64,000 bases of DNA from an uncultured Bdellovibrionales bacterium. Its GTDB lineage: Bacteria; Patescibacteriota; Minisyncoccia; Moranbacterales; UBA1568. Every line of letters begins with the position of its first letter. Position 1 is the stretch's first letter. The stretch lies in assembly GCA_964500505.1 (NCBI GenBank), contig CAZCNN010000001.1, forward strand, positions 131,826 through 195,825. The letters are read 5' to 3'. Position numbers and translations under genes: made by a program. This document shows, in pieces, positions 9,340-59,383 of this stretch. The notes under the pieces were generated by a model. The model searched no databases, was not told the DNA's origin, and saw nothing but the letters and a program-made list of their open reading frames with translations.

Positions 9340-11301
9340 TTACCCAAAAAACCCAGCCACCTGAGTCACCAAGACCAGGGCTGCGAGAGCAATAGCGATA
9401 GCGATAGTAGCATAGGTCACGATCTTCTTGCCTGTTTCTGCCTTGCCTTCATCTCCTCCAGCCGTGAGATACATGAAGCCACCGATAACAAGCATGATGA
9501 TCGCGATGATGCCGACGATGGAGAGGAGGAAGCTTAAGACCTTAGAGGCTATCTCAGTAAAGGTTTGGGCTTCTTCGACGACTTGGGTTACTTCTATCCA
9601 GCCTAAAAGTTCTCCAATTTCTTTGAGGAAGGCAGGAGCAGCGATAGCGAGAGCGAGACCGACTACCGAAGCAGTGATAGCCACTTTGGCTTGAGAGACT
9701 CGTGATTCATTCCCGGCCGAGAGGATATACATGACCGCTCCTACGATAATCATGATGATAGAGAGGACGACGATGATACTTTGGAGCGTTGAGAGGACGG
9801 CAGTTAGCACGCTGTCTAGGGAGTTGTACTTGAGGGGGTTGAAGTAGCCTACTCCAGGAGAAGGGAGGGCGAGTGGGGCACAACAAGAGAGTCCGGTATC
9901 ACCACAGGTGCCAGGGGCAGGCTTGTATTTATCAGGTGCACACCCTCCTGAAACACAGGTATTGGGTGATTGGCAGGTGCCGTCGCCACCAGGGGAACTG
10001 GGTGATCCTGGTGACGGTGATCCAGGTGGGAGGGGTGGAGGCGGGGTATTGTTACCTTCTACCAAGACAGTAACTCCTCTTTTCGGACCACTGCCCTTTG
10101 ACTTGGTAGGGTCTTGACAAAACAGAATATATTCCGTACTCACCTGAGGAGAAACAACCAATGATCCTTTCTGCGTACCACTGGCTGTTGATGGACTGGC
10201 CAGTGGCTCTCCACTCATATTCCGATTATCCCACAGTGTACAACCAAAAAAAGCTTCGTGTTTAAACTCCCAAACAAGCGTAACAGATTGGCCGGGGTAG
10301 ATCTGTTGAGGTGGGGCTGGCGAGGCAAAGAATTTGACGATAGTAGTAAAGTATCCAACCTTCACCAAAGCTCCCTTGATCTGCGCATTCGGATGAGAGC
10401 CGGTCTCAGTAGCTACTCCACTACTATCGAGACACCGCAGATTATAATACCCGGTCTGGGTCGGCCATCCTTCAATACTCCCATTCACAGAGACATCTTG
10501 CCAGTCAGACCAATTTGGATCGTAATCCGCTTTCATCTGACAACTCACTGCTCCTGGTGCCTCCCACGAAATCTCCGTGGTGTTTCCCAGCTCTATCTCA
10601 TCAGGATTAGCATCTATATCGATGGGAATATTAGGAGAAGAAGGGGTGCCATTCGAATCCTGACATACACTGTTAAGCCCATCTGGGTTGTATACATAGC
10701 CACTTTTACACCGAAATTCACATTTTTGATTCGTATCCGTTTCAGAATAGGTCCATGCGACACTACCCGTTACATTATCCGTATCATTAGGATAAACTTC
10801 GACATTATCCCCATATGGCATTTGCCCGGTACAGGAGAAATTCCCTCCTCCTACTACCGTAATATTGACCACTGGAGAGGCTGACGTATAGGTAGATAAG
10901 TCGCTACTGACATATCCACAGCGAAATTCATAGATAGTGTTTTGGGTAGGGGTGTAAGAAAATACTTTTTTCGTCAACTCATCATGGAACTCAGGGGCTG
11001 AAGTAGCGCGGATTATCTCTGAATATCCGCTACTATCCGAGATAACACAGGCTAAAGGCTGATTAGAAAGGTTACTTGGCGTGCTGGAGACATGATATAT
11101 GATCCTAATAGTCTCCCCCTTATTAATGGTTGCCGTTGATGGCACCACCCCTTTCGTATCATCCCAACGATCCATGTAAATAACCCAGCCATCAGTCGCA
11201 AGAGATACGGGTGAAGTCAGTCCAAAACTCATGATGAGTCCCATGATGCCTCCGAGGAAGAGGGTTCGAAGATGGGTGTGGGTACATGGGGTGGGTGACA
11301 T
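9340..11301 (-). CDS. Large secreted/surface protein: signal peptide, roughly 400-aa extracellular region, Pro-rich linker, Cys-knot, two tandem TrbC/VirB2-like (T4SS-pilin-like) 2-TM modules (paralog A)
   Basis: Probable start MSPTPCTHTHLRTLFLGGIMGLIMSFGLTSPVSLA (ATG at 11299-11301). C-terminus has two repeated modules, IVGAVMYILSAGNESRVSQAKVAITASVVGLALAIAAP and VIGGFMYLTAGGDEGKAETGKKIVTYATIAIAIALAAL. Linker PPPPLPPGSPSPGSPSSPGG. Paralogous to the gene at 28455-30410. Confidence 0.7.
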   Translation of the reverse strand: MSPTPCTHTHLRTLFLGGIMGLIMSFGLTSPVSLATDGWVIYMDRWDDTKGVVPSTATINKGETIRIIYHVSSTPSNLSNQPLACVISDSSGYSEIIRATSAPEFHDELTKKVFSYTPTQNTIYEFRCGYVSSDLSTYTSASPVVNITVVGGGNFSCTGQMPYGDNVEVYPNDTDNVTGSVAWTYSETDTNQKCEFRCKSGYVYNPDGLNSVCQDSNGTPSSPNIPIDIDANPDEIELGNTTEISWEAPGAVSCQMKADYDPNWSDWQDVSVNGSIEGWPTQTGYYNLRCLDSSGVATETGSHPNAQIKGALVKVGYFTTIVKFFASPAPPQQIYPGQSVTLVWEFKHEAFFGCTLWDNRNMSGEPLASPSTASGTQKGSLVVSPQVSTEYILFCQDPTKSKGSGPKRGVTVLVEGNNTPPPPLPPGSPSPGSPSSPGGDGTCQSPNTCVSGGCAPDKYKPAPGTCGDTGLSCCAPLALPSPGVGYFNPLKYNSLDSVLTAVLSTLQSIIVVLSIIMIIVGAVMYILSAGNESRVSQAKVAITASVVGLALAIAAPAFLKEIGELLGWIEVTQVVEEAQTFTEIASKVLSFLLSIVGIIAIIMLVIGGFMYLTAGGDEGKAETGKKIVTYATIAIAIALAALVLVTQVAGFFG

Positions 11302-11326
11302 AGAAGAATGCTCCAAGTGAATTAAA

Positions 11327-12526
11327 TTATGATGTGTACGTATGTGTGGCCTCGGGATGAACCGTAGTATCATGAAGGAAGCAAGTTTCAAAGAGTGCGA
11401 CGAAGAGGACGATGGCCACGAGGAAGAAAATACTCTGCACTGGGAAGACAGCGAGCATCAGTGCTGAGAGGAGTGCGGCCAGGATATTAGCGACGGGCCG
11501 AGCGGTCCGGAAAAACGCAATGATATCCATGTCATCAGGACCAATCTGCTTGTAAAAGTACGAGTCACGAAGGATCTCGATACCCGCGATACCGACCCGG
11601 GTCATAAAGAGGGCCGTCCCCCACACCACGATGTCACCCGGCGCGAGAAATGGCAGGATAAAGGTGGCTGCGGCTGCGATGGCAATACTCCCGATGAGCA
11701 TCTCTTTCTCTCCGAAATAGCGATCAGCCAACCTCCCGAGTGGGTACTGGAGGAGGACAAACGGGAGGAGCATGACGGTAAAGATGATCCCAATCTCACT
11801 CCAGGCAAAACCACTCTCACGGAGATAGAGAGGAGTGTAGACAATCATCAGGGCATAAAAGAACTCAAGCGCGAGCGATACGTGGTAGATTCGGGACAGA
11901 TTCCGCGAAGCGAGCATCTTGCCGAACGTCGCCCGAAATCGAATTTTCTTCTGAATGGTCCGATTATCCAACCGAAAACCGACCAACGTGGCAATGAAAA
12001 TGATGGTATAGCCAATCACCAAGGCCAAAAAGATCCCGCTGTAATCATAGGATTCAAGCGTTTTCACCGAAAGAACTGGAGCAATGAGGAGCCCCGCGTT
12101 CATGATAGTGAGGTAAAGACCCCGGATACTTCCCGACACCTTATCCTCCGAAAAGCTCTCAAGGAGAATATCGAGTGTCACCCAGGTCACATTGGTCGCG
12201 ATAAGGAGAAGGAGTGCTGCCCCAAGCGAAATGTAGGCCGAGGTCGCCGACGCGAGAACCGCAGAAGCGCAGATCGAGAGACCGAGTGAGAGATAGAGGG
12301 CGCGAGCCCGTCCGATAATCCGAATCAGGGGCTGGAGATAGAAGAGACTTCCCAAGACGACGACGTAGGCAAGGAGGTAAAAAACACTAACATTGTCACT
12401 CCCTGATACCTCTGCAAAAAAAGTCGAAAGGATGTAAATAAAAAAAGCGTCGAGAAAACCGAACACGAACGATACGGCACTCACGAAGCGAACTTTTTTC
12501 TTGTTGAGATTTTCTTTGTGCGGCAT
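11327..12526 (-). CDS. MFS-type transporter
   Basis: About 12 predicted TM helices in a 6+6 layout over 399 aa. Confidence 0.65.
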   Translation of the reverse strand: MPHKENLNKKKVRFVSAVSFVFGFLDAFFIYILSTFFAEVSGSDNVSVFYLLAYVVVLGSLFYLQPLIRIIGRARALYLSLGLSICASAVLASATSAYISLGAALLLLIATNVTWVTLDILLESFSEDKVSGSIRGLYLTIMNAGLLIAPVLSVKTLESYDYSGIFLALVIGYTIIFIATLVGFRLDNRTIQKKIRFRATFGKMLASRNLSRIYHVSLALEFFYALMIVYTPLYLRESGFAWSEIGIIFTVMLLPFVLLQYPLGRLADRYFGEKEMLIGSIAIAAAATFILPFLAPGDIVVWGTALFMTRVGIAGIEILRDSYFYKQIGPDDMDIIAFFRTARPVANILAALLSALMLAVFPVQSIFFLVAIVLFVALFETCFLHDTTVHPEATHTYTS

Positions 12527-19337: not shown

Positions 19338-19363
19338 ACCCAGTATCTTTAGCTTAAATAAAA

Positions 19364-19391
19364 TGGTGGACTTGGCGAGAATCCCTGCCCG
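19364..19391 (-). repeat. Degenerate duplicate of the tRNA-Cys 3' half (T-arm plus acceptor plus CCA)
   Basis: Minus strand reads GGGCAGGGATTCTCGCCAAGTCCACCA; the genuine tRNA 3' end reads GGCAGTTCGATTCTGCCTAGGTCCACCA. The copy does not fold into a full tRNA. Confidence 0.5.
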
Positions 19392-19445
19392 CCCTTGGAG
19401 GGGGCCGCCGCCCCTGCCTACGGCAGATTAATCTGCAATGCTCAC

Positions 19446-19553
19446 CCTGTTAGACGTATCGTTGGTGGACCTAGGCAGAATCGAACTGCCGTCTCCACAA
19501 TGCGAATGTGGCGTCGTACCACTAGACCATAGGCCCATAAAAGTCTAACAGGG
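19446..19553. repeat. 11-bp perfect inverted repeat (CCCTGTTAGAC ... GTCTAACAGGG) bracketing tRNA-Cys
   Basis: Arms at 19446-19456 and 19543-19553, 6-7 nt outside the mature tRNA ends; could pair as a leader-trailer processing stem. Confidence 0.5.
19463..19536 (-). tRNA. tRNA-Cys (anticodon GCA)
   Basis: Hand-folded cloverleaf: acceptor GGGCCTA/TAGGTCC, anticodon stem CCACA/TGTGG with loop TTCGCAT, T-loop TTCGATT, encoded CCA. Confidence 0.8.
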
Positions 19554-28454: not shown

Positions 28455-30410
28455 TCACCCCCCAAAGAACTTCGCCACCTGAGAGATGATAACGAGAGCT
28501 GCAAGAGCCACCGTGATACCAATAAGGGAGTATTTGACGATAGATTTACCGGTATTGATCCGGTCTTCATCTCCAGTGGCCGTGAGGTACATGAGGCCTC
28601 CAATCACGAGCATGATAATCCCGATGATACCAATGACTGAGAGGAGGAAGTTCAGGATCCCTGTAAGAATCTCGGTGATACTCTTGGCACTGTCTGCTGG
28701 GCTACCATCAACCGCTCCCCAGCCTAAGATAGCGCCAATCTCTTTGAGGAATGACGGTGCAGCGAGAGCGAGAGCAAGGCCAATGAGAGCGGCGGTAATA
28801 ATGAGTTTGCCGGTAGAGAGCTTGGAGTCATTGCCTCCGGCCGTCATGTAAACTATGGAGCCAATCACAATCATGATAAGAGAGAGGATGACGATAATCG
28901 CTTGGAGGAAGCCTAAGAGAGAGGTAAGAATCTCATCGACGGTATTAAAGGCTAAGGGGTTACTAATGGGGATAGTGTAGAGGACGGCTTCAGAGCCAGT
29001 TCTCGCAAGGCAACAGACTCCCGTACCATCTTTGGTCCGACCGACCACTTGTTCGGTGGCGTCGTTACAGCTCGCTTTGGGGGTGCCTACATCACATTTG
29101 CTGTTGTCGGTGGGAGGATTGCCAGGAGCTGGTGAGCCTGGTGGCAGAGGAGGTGGAGTATCACCAGAACCAATTGTAACCTGGACAGTCTCTTTAGGAC
29201 CAAATCCATAAGCGCCGTCCTGCCGTTGACAAAAGAATATATAGGTTGTTGTTGCTTTTGGCGCTACAACCCGACTCCCAGTCTGGGGACTATTATCCTT
29301 CGCTACAAATAAAACAGCATTATTGCCAAGTTGTCCATCATTGCGTGTGTTCTCCTCCAACCTACAATTAGTGCCGTTTTTGATACTCCAGAAGAGAGTG
29401 GTCGTCTCCCCTACTGTTTGGAGAGATAAAGGCTCAGCATAAAAATCCAAAATTTGTGGATAAAAACCAACATTTACATAAGCAGAAAAGTGAGGGCCAT
29501 AATTACTCGTAATAGCCCCTACGCCCTTACTATCAACACACAGCATGTTATACGCCCCAGATGCAGTAGGCTGAGAGGTCATACTACCATTGACTGGGAC
29601 ATCGACCCAAGATGCGAGATTTGAATCTTGATCTGCCTTTATTTGACAACTCACTGCCCCCTGAGTTATCCAAGACAACTTGGTTGTTTCACCTGGTTCT
29701 ATGTATTGTGGATTGGTAGTAAGAGATATGTAGCTTACCTCGGAGACTGATGGAGGAGGACCAGAAGAAGCCTCTATGCAAGCAAAATTACCTAGTTGAT
29801 CCTGACCCGGGACATGATTGGGACCACAATGCCACTCACACTTACGAGCAGTATCCGCCACACTATATATCCAAGACGTATCGGCTAGGACATCGATACT
29901 ATCAGTAGGATATATCTCTATACCACTCGTTACTAGCCATGGTTCGAGTCCCGTACATTTGCCATTGGCGATGACATTAACCGTTACCTCGTCATACAAA
30001 AGGTTCTCTTCGGCAAGATACGCATACCCGCAACCAAGGCGATACGTGACCTGTCCAAGTGATGTTGGGATAAAAATACGTGGCTGAGTATGAATCGGAT
30101 GAAATTGATCCTGGATATCGGGTACCATCGAATCTGGATCAAAATACAGAGTCGCAGTTGCTACCTGTCGATAGCCATCACTGCTAGTAAAAACACATTG
30201 CTTTGGCTCGGTATCACGAGGGAACTGGTCAGCTTGGATGAATAACTCCACTTCTTCGCCAAGTCCAATTGTAGCCGGACTCTCTAAAACAAGATCAACA
30301 GACTCATTTGCTGCTTGCGCTGAAGTGATGAGACCGAGACTCATGGTAAAACCTAGGCCACTCACTAATAGCAAATTTCTAAAATACGCCTTGCATGAGA
30401 TAAATGGCAT
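28455..30410 (-). CDS. Large secreted/surface protein with C-terminal tandem TrbC/VirB2-like 2-TM modules (paralog B)
   Basis: Signal peptide MPFISCKAYFRNLLLVSGLGFTMSLGLITSAQA, shared domain (SCQIKADQDSNLASWVDVPVNGS, cf. SCQMKADYDPNWSDWQDVSVNGS in paralog A), linker TPPPLPPGSPAPGNPPT, Cys-knot, then IVIGSIVYMTAGGNDSKLSTGKLIITAALIGLALALAAP and VIGGLMYLTATGDEDRINTGKSIVKYSLIGITVALAAL. Confidence 0.7.
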   Translation of the reverse strand: MPFISCKAYFRNLLLVSGLGFTMSLGLITSAQAANESVDLVLESPATIGLGEEVELFIQADQFPRDTEPKQCVFTSSDGYRQVATATLYFDPDSMVPDIQDQFHPIHTQPRIFIPTSLGQVTYRLGCGYAYLAEENLLYDEVTVNVIANGKCTGLEPWLVTSGIEIYPTDSIDVLADTSWIYSVADTARKCEWHCGPNHVPGQDQLGNFACIEASSGPPPSVSEVSYISLTTNPQYIEPGETTKLSWITQGAVSCQIKADQDSNLASWVDVPVNGSMTSQPTASGAYNMLCVDSKGVGAITSNYGPHFSAYVNVGFYPQILDFYAEPLSLQTVGETTTLFWSIKNGTNCRLEENTRNDGQLGNNAVLFVAKDNSPQTGSRVVAPKATTTYIFFCQRQDGAYGFGPKETVQVTIGSGDTPPPLPPGSPAPGNPPTDNSKCDVGTPKASCNDATEQVVGRTKDGTGVCCLARTGSEAVLYTIPISNPLAFNTVDEILTSLLGFLQAIIVILSLIMIVIGSIVYMTAGGNDSKLSTGKLIITAALIGLALALAAPSFLKEIGAILGWGAVDGSPADSAKSITEILTGILNFLLSVIGIIGIIMLVIGGLMYLTATGDEDRINTGKSIVKYSLIGITVALAALVIISQVAKFFGG

Positions 30411-48791: not shown

Positions 48792-48826
48792 GGCTCCCGA
48801 AATCGCGGTCGCGAATATACGAGCCA
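48792..48826. repeat. Repeat copy 1: GGCTCCCGAAATCGCGGTCGCGAATATACGAGCC
   Basis: Direct repeat of 49401-49434, with the central GGTC replaced by GACC (inverted core) and a C/G difference near the 3' end. Confidence 0.7.
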
Positions 48827-49400: not shown

Positions 49401-49434
49401 GGCTCCCGAAATCGCGACCGCGAATATAGGAGCC
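49401..49434. repeat. Repeat copy 2: GGCTCCCGAAATCGCGACCGCGAATATAGGAGCC
   Basis: See copy 1. Confidence 0.7.
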
Positions 49435-49495
49435 ACTGGTATAAAATTGGTGCGATAGGGTTCGATAGTAGGATAGATGGAAAAATATAATTTGG

Positions 49496-57274: not shown

Positions 57275-57700
57275 ATGTCACAATCTCTCCTCCCCACTGG
57301 TATGGTTTTTGGTGTTTTTGATGGATTTCATCCTGGACACCAGTTTTTCCTCTCGCAAGCTCGAGCACGCTGTGAGAAACTCGTCGTCGTGGTCGCCCTC
57401 TCGGAGGTAGTCGAGCGGATGAAGAAGCGTCCGCCACTCTATAGCTACGAAGAGCGCGTGGCTCGCATAGAGGAGTTCGATAGTAGCCTCACGGTGGTCC
57501 CGAGTGACCCTGGTCTCGGTGACTGGCAGGTACTCAAAGATCACCAGCCTGATATCGTATTCCTCGGGTATGATCAGGTCGCTCTCGGCCAAGCCCTCTC
57601 AGATATCTCCATGCCCCACACCTTTATCGACTCGCACCACCCCGAAAAATACAAGTCCGGTTTGCTCCGTTCGGCGCAAGAAACTCAGGAGGGCAATTGA
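57275..57700 (+). CDS. Cytidylyl/adenylyltransferase-like protein (HxGH nucleotidyltransferase, RibF N-domain-like)
   Basis: GVFDGFHPGHQ matches the FAD-synthetase/CTase (H/T)xGH motif; 141 aa. An alternative start at M10 (57302) is possible. Confidence 0.55.
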   Translation: MSQSLLPTGMVFGVFDGFHPGHQFFLSQARARCEKLVVVVALSEVVERMKKRPPLYSYEERVARIEEFDSSLTVVPSDPGLGDWQVLKDHQPDIVFLGYDQVALGQALSDISMPHTFIDSHHPEKYKSGLLRSAQETQEGN

Positions 57701-57748
57701 CGGATTGGCTCAAATTCATTAGACTACACACTGTTATGTGAAAATCAT

Positions 57749-57824
57749 GGGTGCGTAGCTCAGTCGGTAGAGCAGTGGCCTTTTAAGCCAACGGTCGAGG
57801 GTTCGATTCCCCCCGCACCCACCA
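57749..57824 (+). tRNA. tRNA-Lys (anticodon UUU)
   Basis: Hand-folded: acceptor GGGTGCG/CGCACCC, D-loop AGTCGGTA, anticodon loop CTTTTAA, T-loop TTCGATT, encoded CCA. Confidence 0.8.
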
Positions 57825-57829
57825 GACGA

Positions 57830-57857
57830 AAAGTCCCCGTAAGGGGATTTTTGTTTT
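57830..57857 (+). terminator. Rho-independent terminator after tRNA-Lys
   Basis: TCCCC-GTAA-GGGGA followed by TTTTTGTTTT. Confidence 0.6.
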
Positions 57858-57911
57858 GGGGTAGGAGGAAGCCAACTGCTTGGCTTACGAGAGGGATGAG
57901 AAAGGCGGAGT

Positions 57912-57962
57912 GATATTTCGCGAGCACGCGAAACCACGAGCCGGGGTCGCGGAAATATGGCC
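57912..57962. repeat. Divergent copy of the CGCG/AAATAT repeat family seen flanking the PaaX-like gene (ATATTTCGCGagcaCGCGAAA ... GGTCGCGGAAATATGGCC)
   Basis: Compare GGTCGCGAATATACGAGCC at 48808-48826; lies inside the tRNA-Lys duplication scar. Confidence 0.4.
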
Positions 57963-57989
57963 ACGTCGGTGGACAGATTATCTGTGACC

Positions 57990-58009
57990 GATTCCCCCCG
58001 CACCCACCA
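57990..58009 (+). repeat. Exact 20-bp duplicate of the tRNA-Lys 3' end (GATTCCCCCCGCACCCACCA)
   Basis: Identical to 57805-57824, 166 bp downstream: an att-like direct repeat. Confidence 0.75.
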
Positions 58010-58012
58010 ATC

Positions 58013-58045
58013 AAAAAAAAGACCCTATTTCAGGGTCTTTTTTCT
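58013..58045. terminator. Bidirectional terminator (serS on minus; tRNA-Lys region on plus)
   Basis: A8-GACCCT-ATTTC-AGGGTC-T8. Confidence 0.65.
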
Positions 58046-58060
58046 TTCTAACTAGGCATT

Positions 58061-59383
58061 CTACCCCTTCGGTCGAATCACATCCTTGCCGACAAAGGGA
58101 CGGAGGACTTCGGGGACGATGACTGAGCCATCAGCCTGTTGGTAGTTCTCGAGGATTGAGATAAAGATACGCGGGCTCGGGAGAGCTGTGTTGTTGAGCA
58201 TGTAGACATGCTTCTTGTCGCCGTTCTCGTCCTTGTACTTCACATTGAGACGACGTGACTGCCAGTCGAGGAAGTTCGAGGCTGATCCTGTCTCTCCGTA
58301 ACGGTTCATCCCTGGCATCCAGGCTTCGAGGTCAAAGGCACGGTATTTGCCGGCGCTCATGTCACCGCTACAAATCTGGATCTTGCGGTATGGGAGACCG
58401 AGCTCACGATGCATCTCTTCGGAGACAGCGATCATTTCTTCCTGAAGCTGGTTGGCCAGTTCGATATCGGCCGGACAGAGGACGACCTGCTCAACTTTCA
58501 TGAACTCATGTACGCGGTACATGCCCTTGGTGTCCTTACCATAGCTCCCAATCTCACTGCGATAGCACTGACTGAACCCCGCGAGGCGGAGTGGCAGCGT
58601 CGCACCATCAAGCACTTCGCCCGAATAGTACGCGAGGAGTGATGGCTCGGCAGTCCCGACCAAGAACTTGGCTTCTTTGGAGACACTCCCATCGGCTTCT
58701 TTGTCTGAGGTAGCGACCTGATAGATCTCATCGACGCCACCATCATATTCGAGTCCCTTGAAGTAGCCACTACCAAAGAGCGGAAAGCCCTTGACCAAAG
58801 TCGGTGGAATCATCGGAGCAAATCCCTTCGCGACCATTTTCTGAATAGCATAGAGCATCACACCCATGACGAGGAGCGTCCCTTCGTTCTTGAGATAATA
58901 GCCCCGATAGCCAGACACCTTGGTCCCCCGCTCGAGGTCGAGGATATCGAGCATCTGGCCGAGTTCGATGTGGGTGCGCGGAGTGAAATCAAACGACTTT
59001 ATCTCGCCGTACTTTCCGACTTCTTGATTCTCAGCATCACTCTTGCCCCGTGGGGTATCTGGAGAAATGATATTGGGTACCTGGGCCATAAGCACTTCGT
59101 ACTCATCTTTCACCCGAGCGAAGAGTGGTTCGAGCGCCTCGGTTTTTTGCTTGATTTCTTTGCCTTTCTCGATCACTTCGGCCCGCTCTTCGGGAGTCTT
59201 CGCCTGCTTGATGAGGTCATTGATATCATTCTTGAGCGACTGGAGCTCTTCAATTTCTTGGAGAAGTGCGATCCGCTCTCGGTCCTTGGCCAAAAGAACA
59301 TCAATATCGACTGACAGATTCTTGGCGGAGACAGCCGCTTTGACGGCATCGACATTGTTTCGGATGAATGCGATATCAAGCAT
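58061..59383 (-). CDS. serS: Seryl-tRNA synthetase
   Basis: N-terminal coiled coil, class II motifs, 440 aa; MLDIAFIRNN start. Confidence 0.95.
   Translation of the reverse strand: MLDIAFIRNNVDAVKAAVSAKNLSVDIDVLLAKDRERIALLQEIEELQSLKNDINDLIKQAKTPEERAEVIEKGKEIKQKTEALEPLFARVKDEYEVLMAQVPNIISPDTPRGKSDAENQEVGKYGEIKSFDFTPRTHIELGQMLDILDLERGTKVSGYRGYYLKNEGTLLVMGVMLYAIQKMVAKGFAPMIPPTLVKGFPLFGSGYFKGLEYDGGVDEIYQVATSDKEADGSVSKEAKFLVGTAEPSLLAYYSGEVLDGATLPLRLAGFSQCYRSEIGSYGKDTKGMYRVHEFMKVEQVVLCPADIELANQLQEEMIAVSEEMHRELGLPYRKIQICSGDMSAGKYRAFDLEAWMPGMNRYGETGSASNFLDWQSRRLNVKYKDENGDKKHVYMLNNTALPSPRIFISILENYQQADGSVIVPEVLRPFVGKDVIRPKG

What the first reader, a model, noticed from the sequence alone, without database searches (positions are those of the whole stretch)
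57749..58009. tRNA-Lys with an exact 20-bp 3'-end duplicate 166 bp downstream: an att-like scar containing the CGCG/AAATAT motif
GATTCCCCCCGCACCCACCA occurs at the tRNA 3' end (57805-57824) and again at 57990-58009. Duplication of a tRNA 3' end is the classic footprint of tyrosine-integrase-mediated integration (attL/attR). The intervening 165 bp is too short for an element, so this reads as a scar after deletion or excision. That spacer contains ATATTTCGCGagcaCGCGAAA and GGTCGCGGAAATATGGCC, which resemble the repeats flanking the PaaX-like gene 9 kb away. This suggests one small mobile/repeat element family operating at both places.
Basis: partly seen in the sequence, partly recalled or inferred. 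Interest (0 to 1): 0.6.

Follow-up and report, generated by a model that had tools for sequence, protein, structure and literature searches.

The report
tRNA-like RNA module behind tRNA-Lys
The 165 bases between the two copies of the tRNA-Lys 3' end are not a scar but one intact copy of an undescribed, conserved, folded RNA module that sits behind tRNA and tmRNA genes in Moranbacteria (candidate phyla radiation bacteria) and uses a second copy of that tRNA's tail as its own 3' end.

Summary
GATTCCCCCCGCACCCACCA occurs exactly twice (57805-57824, the tRNA-Lys(UUU) 3' end, and 57990-58009); chance expects none.

The "scar" reading fails. The spacer plus the second 20-mer (57854-58009) is a full-length member of a conserved family of about 155 nt. 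I found it in 15 other distinct loci from Moranbacteria-type genomes and metagenomes. It always lies directly 3' of a tRNA (Lys, Tyr, Arg, Ser, Leu) or tmRNA gene, in the same orientation. It ends in a copy of that gene's 3' part starting at T-loop G57; one copy is truncated and one is cut by a contig end.

Structure is well supported: 45 consensus pairs, 22 with compensatory changes against 8.4±1.9 in shuffles. Three hairpin domains are closed by helices that use the duplicated tRNA tail. Rfam has no match.

Relatives have clean empty tRNA-Lys sites, so this is an insertion with target duplication. No integrase, transposase or reverse transcriptase is in the window or next to any copy. No larger element occurs at 13 orthologous loci.

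The claimed link to the repeats flanking the PaaX-like gene is at chance level. Function and insertion mechanism remain inferred.

The parts
57697..57725 (+). Promoter-like site (TTGACG, 17 nt, TAGACT) upstream of tRNA-Lys. It is probably the only promoter for the tRNA plus the module.
   Evidence: Consensus scan. The same block (ttgacg...cattagacta) is conserved upstream of tRNA-Lys in L013, L014, L016 and L026. No promoter-like site lies between the tRNA and the module.
57749..57824 (+). tRNA-Lys(UUU) gene with encoded CCA.
   Evidence: ARAGORN; Rfam tRNA model, 69.4 bits, E 1.4e-14.
57804..57824 (+). Proximal copy of the repeat (CGATTCCCCCCGCACCCACCA): tRNA positions C56/G57 to CCA.
57833..57857 (+). 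Hairpin GTCCCC-GTAA-GGGGAT followed by TTTTTGTTTT. It looks like a terminator and forms the leader of the module. Lys- and Tyr-linked copies share it; Arg-, Ser- and Leu-linked copies lack it.
   Evidence: Read from the sequence; fold; comparison of copies.
57858..57868 (+). 5' closing strand GGGGTAGGAGG. It contains GGGTAGG, which equals the acceptor 5' strand of the tRNA-Tyr in L030. It pairs only imperfectly with the Lys-type distal copy.
57867..57888 (+). Hairpin P1 (GGAAGCCAA / CTGC loop / TTGGCTTAC).
   Evidence: RNAalifold. All 9 pairs show compensatory changes somewhere in the family.
57893..57896 (+). GGGA, the 5' strand of the T-stem-like helix. It pairs with TCCC at 57993-57996 inside the distal tRNA copy.
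   Evidence: Consensus pairs 63:190 and 64-66:183-185, two of them with compensatory changes. Independent minimum-free-energy folds agree.
57904..57942 (+). P2 domain: GGC/GCC, GTG/CAC and the hairpin TTTCGCG-AGCA-CGCGAAA. This is the near-invariant core of the family.
   Evidence: The U:A pair of GUG/CAC changes to C:G in L032 and L033.
57945..57989 (+). P3, a long hairpin (GGTCGCGGAAATATGGCCAC / GTCG loop / GTGGACAGATTATCTGTGACC).
   Evidence: 18 pairs, 10 with compensatory changes. G:U pairs fall on this strand only.
57990..58009 (+). Distal copy of the tRNA-Lys 3' end (G57 to CCA). It is the 3' strand of the module's closing helices and was the ancestral tRNA 3' end.
   Evidence: Collinear, together with the following terminator, with the native tRNA end in L014 and L016. 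It lies inside the covariance-model hit.
57854..58009 (+). The whole module as matched by the family covariance model. It is the only copy in the window.
   Evidence: Model R1, 171.5 bits, E 8.7e-44, model positions 1-156 of 156.
58013..58043 (.). A-run, hairpin GACCC-TATTTCA-GGGTC, then T-run: a two-way terminator shared by the tRNA/module unit and the convergent serS gene (58061-59383, - strand).
   Evidence: Sequence; fold. The homologous hairpin follows the tRNA directly at the empty sites in L014 and L016.

Best explanation
Positions 57854-58009 encode a tRNA-like structured RNA of about 150 nt, read in the same direction as tRNA-Lys and most likely from the same promoter. It has three conserved hairpin domains (P1, P2, P3). 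These are enclosed by an acceptor-like helix and a T-stem-like helix whose 3' strands are the second copy of the tRNA-Lys tail (G57 to CCA). The duplicate is therefore a working part of this RNA, not debris.

The module belongs to a family that sits behind different tRNA genes and a tmRNA gene in Moranbacteria. Each member ends in the tail of its own neighbour. The family behaves as a small, non-autonomous insertion module: it enters at the 3' end of a tRNA-type gene and duplicates positions 57 to about 73, sometimes more. The upstream tRNA stays intact, and the displaced native tail and terminator become the 3' end and terminator of the inserted RNA.

Shown: the repeat, the family, its structure, its strand, its constant position, the empty sites, and the absence of a recombinase gene nearby.

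Inferred: that the RNA is made and processed like a tRNA (RNase P at the 5' end, tRNA-type 3' trimming), what it does in the cell, and which enzyme or recombination route inserts it.
For: Family and position:
- A genome-collection scan gave 8 loci, one per assembly. A metagenome scan gave 4 more.
- With the serS-anchored loci, the model R1 finds full-length copies at 124-176 bits. They lie behind tRNA-Lys (window, L011, L018, L019, L024, L026, L035; L029 is cut by a contig end), tRNA-Tyr (L028/L031, L030), tRNA-Arg-UCG (L022, L023), tRNA-Ser-GCU (L027), tRNA-Leu-CAG (L032) and a tmRNA gene (L033; Rfam tmRNA E 6e-45).
- Each copy ends in its own neighbour's 3' part, starting at G57; L030 keeps only GAATCC and L029 is cut off.

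Structure:
- 97.3% of cells are paired. 22 of 45 pairs have compensatory changes against 8.4±1.9 in shuffles (0 of 500 reach the observed value). Slid controls give 29-44% pairing.
- G:U pairs occur on the tRNA-sense strand only.
- Independent folds give the same four-way layout, with perfect 7+5 bp closing helices in the Leu and Ser copies.
- The 5' strands fit their own distal copies better than other copies (permutation p=0.004; rank 4 of 720).

Insertion:
- Clean empty tRNA-Lys sites exist in L013, L014/L015 and L016/L017, with the same downstream terminator.
- One assembly (GCA_964531045.1) has an empty tRNA-Lys site (L015) while the module sits at tRNA-Tyr (L028).
- The Tyr-linked L030 copy is 95-98% identical to all Lys-linked copies, whereas the Tyr-linked L028 copy is only 76-78%.
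- The window's 5' strand is Tyr-type.

Selection during vertical descent:
- L022 and L023 are orthologous (neighbouring protein 83% identical). Only the tRNA and the module align, with compensatory changes in P1 and P3.

No recombinase:
-.

Not previously catalogued:
- No Rfam family matches. No phage or plasmid match.
Against: - There is no expression data, so transcription and processing are inferred.
- In Lys- and Tyr-linked copies a terminator-like hairpin with a U-run lies between the tRNA and the module. No separate promoter is visible, so the RNA would depend on read-through.
- In the window itself the acceptor-like closing helix is weak. Its 5' strand fits a Tyr tail better than its own Lys tail.
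- The Lys-linked copies have kept that mismatch across hosts whose SerRS is only 77-100% identical. This weakens the claim that the closing helix is essential.
- L030 has lost most of its distal copy.
- "One copy per genome" rests on a strict 20-base pattern and on incomplete metagenome-assembled genomes.
- Relocation could partly reflect horizontal exchange of the whole tRNA region, or gene conversion, rather than true transposition.
- The sample is 13-16 sequences from one bacterial lineage, and several are closely related.
Confidence: 0.62

Rival explanations
1. Classic att scar. A kilobase-size island carrying a tyrosine integrase once integrated into tRNA-Lys, and nearly all of it was later deleted. 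That left attL, 165 bp of junk, and attR.
For: The direct repeat of the tRNA 3' end is the standard island footprint (Islander paper PMC4383910). tRNA and tmRNA genes are the usual island targets.
Against: - The 165 bp is conserved at full length, with covarying helices, in 15 other distinct loci and behind six kinds of target gene. Independent decay cannot leave the same 165 bp each time.
- No larger insert is bounded by tRNA-Lys tails at any of 13 orthologous loci.
- No integrase is in the window.
- No phage, plasmid or viral-contig match.
Confidence: 0.04
2. A purely DNA-level miniature integrative element. The hairpins are recombinase-binding or single-strand DNA structures and the two tRNA tails are attL and attR. 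A recombinase encoded elsewhere, or a host one, moves it, as with CIME or IMEX elements. Any RNA made from it is incidental.
For: - Target duplication with a constant left edge at G57 and a variable right edge, from position 73 out to +44.
- Tandem arrays with three tRNA tails in L024, L033 and L034.
- Empty and filled sites.
- Recent relocation between tRNA-Tyr and tRNA-Lys.
Against: - G:U pairs sit on the tRNA-sense strand only.
- Orientation relative to the tRNA is always the same, and a terminator always follows.
- 5' strands co-vary with the distal copy even where the copy has drifted from the tRNA (L028, L011, L033).
- A core of about 50 nt is nearly invariant, loops included, which suits an RNA-protein or RNA-RNA interface better than simple att arms.
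- No recombinase has been identified.
Confidence: 0.15
3. A vertically inherited housekeeping small RNA gene that is not mobile. It arose from tRNA-gene duplicates, and its 3' end is kept like the neighbouring tRNA by gene conversion. Presence or absence reflects deletion between the direct repeats.
For: - A single copy per assembly.
- Orthologous Arg-linked copies evolve by compensatory change.
- The distal copy tracks T-loop polymorphisms of its tRNA: GATC in both copies in L019, and A57 in both copies in L023.
- Deletion between 17-21-bp repeats would give clean empty sites.
Against: - The same core sits behind six different genes, each with a matched tail.
- A Tyr-linked copy is 95-98% identical to Lys-linked copies although their hosts have diverged.
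- Lys-linked copies carry a Tyr-type 5' strand.
- Other, unrelated bodies (types B, C, D) occupy the same kind of site.
Confidence: 0.15
4. A chance or slippage duplication of 20 bp with no biological meaning.
For: None beyond the shortness of the repeat.
Against: No matches in 100 shuffles. The same arrangement recurs in many genomes.
Confidence: 0.01

Closest known systems
Genomic islands and prophages integrated in tRNA/tmRNA genes by tyrosine integrases (attL/attR; Islander database, PMC4383910)
   Same: The targets are tRNA and tmRNA genes. The insertion leaves an intact gene plus a displaced 3' fragment as a direct repeat. The repeat starts in the T-loop. Tandem accretion with three repeats occurs.
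   Different: The insert is about 165 bp with no ORF. No integrase lies in or near it. The insert is a conserved structured RNA. The same insert carries a different, target-matched tail at each kind of tRNA. The displaced fragment is reused as part of the inserted RNA.
Non-autonomous integrative elements moved in trans: CIMEs derived from ICEs, and IMEX elements that exploit XerCD (own knowledge, not tested here)
   Same: They have att-type repeats but no recombinase of their own. Tandem arrays occur. Presence and absence vary between relatives.
   Different: Those elements are kilobases long and carry fixed att sequences. No helper recombinase is identified here, and the target repertoire spans at least six genes.
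tRNA-like non-coding RNAs: the tmRNA tRNA-like domain and bacterial Y RNAs (YrlA; PMC4201824)
   Same: An acceptor-like helix formed by the 5' and 3' ends, stacked on a T-stem-like helix, with a 3' NCCA. The rest of the tRNA is replaced by other domains.
   Different: There is no intact T-loop: the loop is replaced by the P2 and P3 domains. There is no tag reading frame and no Ro-binding helix. Neither ARAGORN nor Rfam recognises it. Its tRNA-like strands copy whichever tRNA lies upstream.
Casposon and CRISPR-type integration with long target duplications at tRNA 3' ends (own knowledge)
   Same: A long duplication of 17-21 bp at the 3' end of a tRNA gene. New units are added next to the repeat, giving repeat-insert-repeat arrays.
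   Different: No Cas1 gene and no terminal inverted repeats were found. The right edge of the duplication varies, up to 64 bp in L037, which a fixed staggered cut does not predict.

Membership tests
tRNA-integrated genomic island (tyrosine integrase attL/attR) | Direct repeat made of the 3' part of the target tRNA gene, with an intact gene at one end and a displaced fragment at the other | tested here: met
   Exact 20/21-mer at 57804-57824 and 57990-58009. The native terminator follows the second copy.
tRNA-integrated genomic island (tyrosine integrase attL/attR) | Integrase gene inside or next to the bounded segment | tested here: not met
   The bounded segment is 165 bp. Pfam scans of the long non-overlapping ORFs across the window, plus several shorter alternative-frame ORFs, found no integrase, transposase, Cas1 or reverse-transcriptase domain. 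None was found beside copies in other loci.
tRNA-integrated genomic island (tyrosine integrase attL/attR) | A kilobase-size element present between the repeats in at least some relatives | tested here: not met
   At 13 orthologous tRNA-Lys loci the site is empty or holds inserts of 85-200 bp. No second tRNA-Lys tail lies within ±10 kb in L013, L014 or L016.
Non-autonomous integrative element mobilised in trans (CIME/IMEX-like) | Flanking att repeats without its own recombinase, with filled and empty sites among relatives | tested here: met
Non-autonomous integrative element mobilised in trans (CIME/IMEX-like) | A helper recombinase that excises and integrates it; circular junction products | not testable with these tools
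Structured non-coding RNA (generic) | Conserved secondary structure supported by compensatory base changes on one strand | tested here: met
   22 of 45 pairs have compensatory changes and 0 of 500 shuffles reach that; slid controls collapse; G:U pairs fall on the sense strand.
Structured non-coding RNA (generic) | Evidence of transcription and defined RNA ends | not testable with these tools
   No transcriptome data are available. Only the upstream promoter and downstream terminator are seen.
tmRNA | tRNA-like domain with an intact T-arm, plus a tag reading frame and pseudoknots | tested here: not met
   ARAGORN finds no tmRNA in the window. Rfam tmRNA does not hit 57825-58009 at E<=10. The one candidate reading frame examined (TTG at 57881) is not preserved in L011, where a 19-nt insertion shifts the frame (read).
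tRNA gene or pseudogene | Cloverleaf with D, anticodon and T arms | tested here: not met
   No ARAGORN or Rfam tRNA hit on the module. Only the acceptor-like and T-stem-like helices remain.
Any Rfam 15 family | Match to a curated covariance model | tested here: not met
   No hit on the module at E<=10 in the window, or at E<=1 in 10 other loci.
MITE | Element-specific terminal inverted repeats, short fixed target duplication, many copies per genome | tested here: not met
   There is one copy in 64 kb and one pattern hit per assembly. The only end complementarity is to the target-derived tail. The duplication is 17-64 bp and variable.
Casposon/CRISPR-like integration | Cas1 integrase and a fixed-length duplication | tested here: not met
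   No Cas1 domain in the window. The right edge of the duplication varies.
   Alignment p=0.03 and 0.10; 4% of random window pieces score as well. No model hit. The PaaX repeats occur only beside that gene, in the window and in L002.

The most novel reading that the evidence does not exclude
A new class of mobile RNA gene in candidate phyla radiation bacteria. These would be small structured RNAs, of several unrelated body types, that carry no enzyme of their own. They insert at the 3' end of tRNA and tmRNA genes and duplicate the tRNA tail from the T-loop onward. They then use that tail, paired with an internal guide-like 5' strand, both as their attachment site and as the tRNA-mimicking end that lets host tRNA-processing enzymes mature them. 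The internal strands complementary to the tail may even select the target gene.
Probability: 0.3. Interest if true: 0.85.

Novelty: new variant of a known kind. Interest (0 to 1): 0.7.

Why it matters
tRNA-tail repeats are routinely read as island footprints. Here the material between them is a conserved, covarying RNA of unknown function that no RNA database lists, in a bacterial lineage with very small genomes where every retained non-coding element is notable.

If the RNA is expressed, it adds a new kind of tRNA mimic, one that borrows its acceptor and T strands from whichever tRNA it lands behind.

If it is mobile, it shows tRNA and tmRNA genes being targeted without an element-encoded integrase. 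That raises the question of which host or helper activity does the work.

It also matters for annotation. Such fragments may be miscalled as tRNA pseudogenes or used to mis-delimit islands.

Tried and rejected
- Known RNA family: Rfam at permissive thresholds on the window region and on 10 related loci gave nothing on the module.
- tmRNA, or a tRNA with an intron: ARAGORN and Rfam were negative. The one candidate reading frame examined is not preserved in L011. The paper on group I introns in Patescibacteria tRNA genes concerns position 35/36 only.
- Hammerhead-like and sarcin-ricin-like strings seen by eye in the window copy are not conserved in the family.
- Phage or plasmid origin: no hits in viral contigs with three patterns or by blastn against phages and plasmids.
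- Integrase or other recombinase nearby: none.
- CCA on the distal copy as a sign of reverse transcription of a mature tRNA: rejected. Empty sites such as L016 encode CCA natively, so the distal CCA is simply the native flank.
- Link to the PaaX-flanking repeats: chance level.
- Literature searches for a described equivalent found none, but the search matches words only and is not exhaustive.
- The terminator scan tool missed hairpins that are obvious by eye, so I read the terminators from the sequence and from the folds.

Full report
**Observation.** tRNA-Lys(UUU) lies at 57749-57824 on the + strand (ARAGORN; Rfam tRNA 69.4 bits). Its last 20 bases, GATTCCCCCCGCACCCACCA, recur exactly at 57990-58009. 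There are no other matches with up to 3 mismatches and none in 100 shuffles. With the preceding C the repeat is 21 nt. The repeat covers T-loop G57 through the T-stem 3' strand, the acceptor 3' strand, the discriminator and CCA.

**Setting.** The flanking genes are housekeeping: a cytidylyltransferase-like gene at 57275-57700 (+) and a convergent serS at 58061-59383 (-). Nearby are RRF, an M50 protease, LysRS, GreA and a PBP2-type protein. SerRS homologues carry the source names Candidatus Moranbacteria/Moraniibacteriota. Pfam scans of the long non-overlapping ORFs across the 64 kb, plus several shorter alternative-frame ORFs, found no integrase, transposase, Cas1 or reverse transcriptase.

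**The second copy is the ancestral tRNA end.** Loci with an identical SerRS carry the identical 361-bp intergenic region. In relatives with 85-86% SerRS identity (L014/L015, L016/L017) the tRNA-Lys is followed directly by the same A-run, hairpin and T-run terminator that follows the second copy in the window. L013 (90%) also has a single tRNA tail. The window therefore carries a 185-bp insertion: 165 bp plus one copy of the tail.

**The 165 bp is not debris.** L011, whose SerRS is 98% identical but whose context is rearranged, has the same sequence after its tRNA-Lys, with two extra hairpins inserted into helices. L018 and L019-L021 (84-85%) have it too, with the tRNA and module inverted as a unit relative to serS.
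- A scan of one genome per species with GAAAGGCGGAGTGNNNTTTCGCG gave 8 loci, one per assembly.
- A metagenome scan with a second pattern gave 4 more.
- In every case the element lies immediately 3' of a tRNA-type gene and in its orientation: tRNA-Lys(UUU), tRNA-Tyr(GUA), tRNA-Arg(UCG), tRNA-Ser(GCU), tRNA-Leu(CAG), and in L033 a tmRNA gene (Rfam E 5.9e-45).
- Each element ends in a copy of that gene's 3' part beginning at position 57. The exceptions are L030, whose copy is truncated to GAATCC, and L029, which is cut by the contig end. A strong terminator follows in nearly all copies, but not in L011 or L030.

**Structure.** An alignment of 13 distinct copies (A2) gives an RNAalifold consensus of 45 pairs:
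- P1, 9 bp with a CTGC loop;
- a P2 domain that is almost invariant over about 50 nt;
- a long P3;
- a helix joining the segment after P1 to the T-loop/T-stem part of the distal tRNA copy.

In the pair count, 97.3% of cells are paired and 22 pairs carry compensatory changes, against 8.4±1.9 in shuffles (0 of 500). Sliding the partners by 1-3 columns drops pairing to 29-44%. G:U pairs fall on the tRNA-sense strand (one pair is G:U in 12 of 13 sequences). Together with the constant orientation and the terminator, this points to an RNA read in the tRNA direction.

Independent single-sequence folds reproduce one architecture: an acceptor-like closing helix, P1, and a T-stem-like helix enclosing P2 and P3. 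The Leu and Ser copies have perfect 7+5 bp closing helices. The tmRNA-linked copy has 7+11 nt of internal strands complementary to the tmRNA tail. Its 5' strand GGAGATG is the Watson-Crick complement of the tail, not a copy of the tmRNA 5' end GGGGATG. Across copies, the 5' strands fit their own tails better than other tails (p=0.004; rank 4 of 720 over six target types).

A covariance model (R1) finds one full-length copy in the window, 57854-58009 at 171.5 bits. Rfam has no family for it.

**Signs of selection.** L022 and L023 are orthologous Arg-linked loci; their neighbouring M23 peptidases are 83% identical. Only the tRNA and the module align, at 79.5%, and P1 and P3 differ by compensatory changes. 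Where a distal copy has drifted from its tRNA, the drift mostly preserves or improves pairing with the element's own 5' strand: GGACAG:CTGTCC in L028, GGGGT:GCCCC in L011, and C-to-T changes that keep G:U pairs in L033.

**Signs of relocation.**
- Lys-linked copies are 93-96% identical to each other although their hosts' SerRS is only 77-100% identical. The Tyr-linked L030 copy is 95-98% identical to all of them, while the other Tyr-linked type (L028) is 76-78%.
- The 5' strand of the window copy contains GGGTAGG, which is the acceptor strand of the L030 tRNA-Tyr. Other Lys-linked copies contain GGGCAGG, the acceptor strand of the L028 tRNA-Tyr. Only the tail is Lys-type, so the window's closing helix is poor.
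- An older-looking Lys-linked copy, L035, has GGGTGGG, which nearly matches Lys.
- Assembly GCA_964531045.1 has an empty tRNA-Lys 3' site (L015) and the module behind tRNA-Tyr (L028).
- The distal copy also tracks T-loop polymorphisms of its tRNA: GATC in both copies in L019 and A57 in both in L023. This indicates continuing exchange between the two repeats.

**The site type is a hotspot for several body types.**
- L034 and L037 hold an unrelated structured unit of about 85 nt between two tRNA-Lys tails. In L037 the repeat is 64 bp and includes the terminator.
- L024 holds the main type followed by this second type, with three tails in all.
- L036 holds a third body of about 150 nt whose 5' strand GTCGTGCAGGGA is a perfect 12-nt complement of its tail.
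- The L023 tRNA-Arg(UCU) has a 51-nt hairpin plus a 17-18-nt tail copy, where the orthologous L022 site is empty.
- Of 42 tRNAs in the held loci, 13 have a downstream tail copy and none has an upstream one. That set is biased by how the loci were collected.
- The left edge of the duplication is always at G57±1. The right edge varies from position 73 to well beyond the gene.

**Interpretation.** The data support a small, non-autonomous insertion module that encodes a tRNA-mimicking structured RNA and reuses the displaced tRNA tail as its own 3' strand.

How it inserts is open. A recombinase acting in trans, with its crossover at the T-loop side, fits the constant left edge, the variable right edge and the tandem arrays. 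Homology-driven Campbell-type insertion or gene conversion fits the variable repeat length. A fixed staggered cut fits the 17-21-bp cases but not the 64-bp case. Reverse transcription is not needed, because the distal CCA is the native flank (L016 encodes CCA).

What the RNA does is unknown. An acceptor/T-like helix with NCCA would make it a substrate for RNase P and tRNA 3' processing. That is the most economical reason for keeping the tail, but it is inference.

One unresolved difficulty is the terminator-like hairpin at 57833-57857 between the tRNA and the module.

**The PaaX claim.** The 35-nt repeats at 48792-48826 and 49401-49435 flank a PaaX_M-domain gene. They recur only in the conspecific L002. 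Their similarity to the spacer is at chance level, and the family model does not hit them.

**Verdict.** The insertion idea is partly right. The "scar", "integrase footprint" and "shared repeat family" readings are not supported. What is there is an undescribed tRNA/tmRNA-linked structured RNA module. No equivalent was found in Rfam or in the paper library, although that search is not exhaustive.

Noticed in passing
window 19363-19462 (- strand), downstream of tRNA-Ala(CGC) 19463-19536: About 80 nt after tRNA-Ala lies GATTCTCGCCAAGTCCACCA, which is 16/20 identical to the tRNA-Ala tail GATTCTGCCTAGGTCCACCA and is followed by TTTTATTT. An upstream GGUGAG can pair with the diverged CUCGCC. This is the same layout as the tRNA-Lys module with a different, shorter body. 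The fold alone is not significant (z=-0.1).
   Followed up: partly
L034 4487-4620, L037 4716-4895, L024 4183-4305 (- strand): A second conserved unit of about 85 nt (GGAATCGAAGGGCRYGAGTAGAATG…GAGTCGGAGCGAGGAG) lies between copies of the tRNA-Lys tail. In L037 the direct repeat is 64 bp and includes the terminator. In L024 the unit follows the main module in tandem. It has no Rfam match.
   Followed up: partly
L036 4387-4572 (- strand): A third body type of about 150 nt lies behind a variant tRNA-Lys. Its 5' strand GTCGTGCAGGGA is a perfect 12-nt complement of the duplicated tail TCCCTGCACGAC, giving a continuous acceptor-plus-T minihelix.
   Followed up: partly
L023 3975-4047 (- strand) versus L022 3667-3693: The L023 tRNA-Arg(UCU) is followed by a 51-nt hairpin and a 17-18-nt copy of its own tail, ahead of tRNA-His. 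The orthologous spacer in L022 is empty.
   Followed up: partly
L011 12060-12163; L014 11446-11550 (- strand); L035 4385-4511: An insert of about 100 nt lies upstream of tRNA-Lys. It begins with a copy of the tRNA 5' end (GGGTGCGTAGCTC) and contains the conserved string CAGGCAGGCAGTCGG(T)ACCTCCTTC. It mirrors the 3' phenomenon. The window does not have it.
   Followed up: no
window 48792-48826 and 49401-49435: Two 35-nt direct repeats, each an imperfect palindrome (GGCTC…GAGCC), bracket a small PaaX_M (Cas2-like domain) gene. They are conserved in the conspecific L002 and absent from the other held loci. They may be operator sites, and they are unrelated to the tRNA module.
   Followed up: partly
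L033 797-940: Behind the tmRNA-linked module lies a second, different unit. It shares the P3 frame (GGGGTCGAG…CTCGTGACC) and ends in a third, degenerate copy of the tmRNA tail, after which comes the terminator.
   Followed up: no
L032 10670-10714 (- strand): An isolated P3-like hairpin (model positions 92-136, E 4e-5) lies far from any tRNA, which suggests that P3 is a reusable motif.
   Followed up: no
window 9340-11391 (-) and 28455-30410 (-): Two large proteins (683 and 651 aa) each have a C-terminal T4SS_pilin domain.
   Followed up: no
L018 5524-6837 and L002 1839-2180: Gene callers in public assemblies ran ORFs across the module or the neighbouring region (a 437-aa BNR protein with an N-terminal extension, and a 113-aa ORF). 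The module appears to cause annotation artefacts.
   Followed up: no
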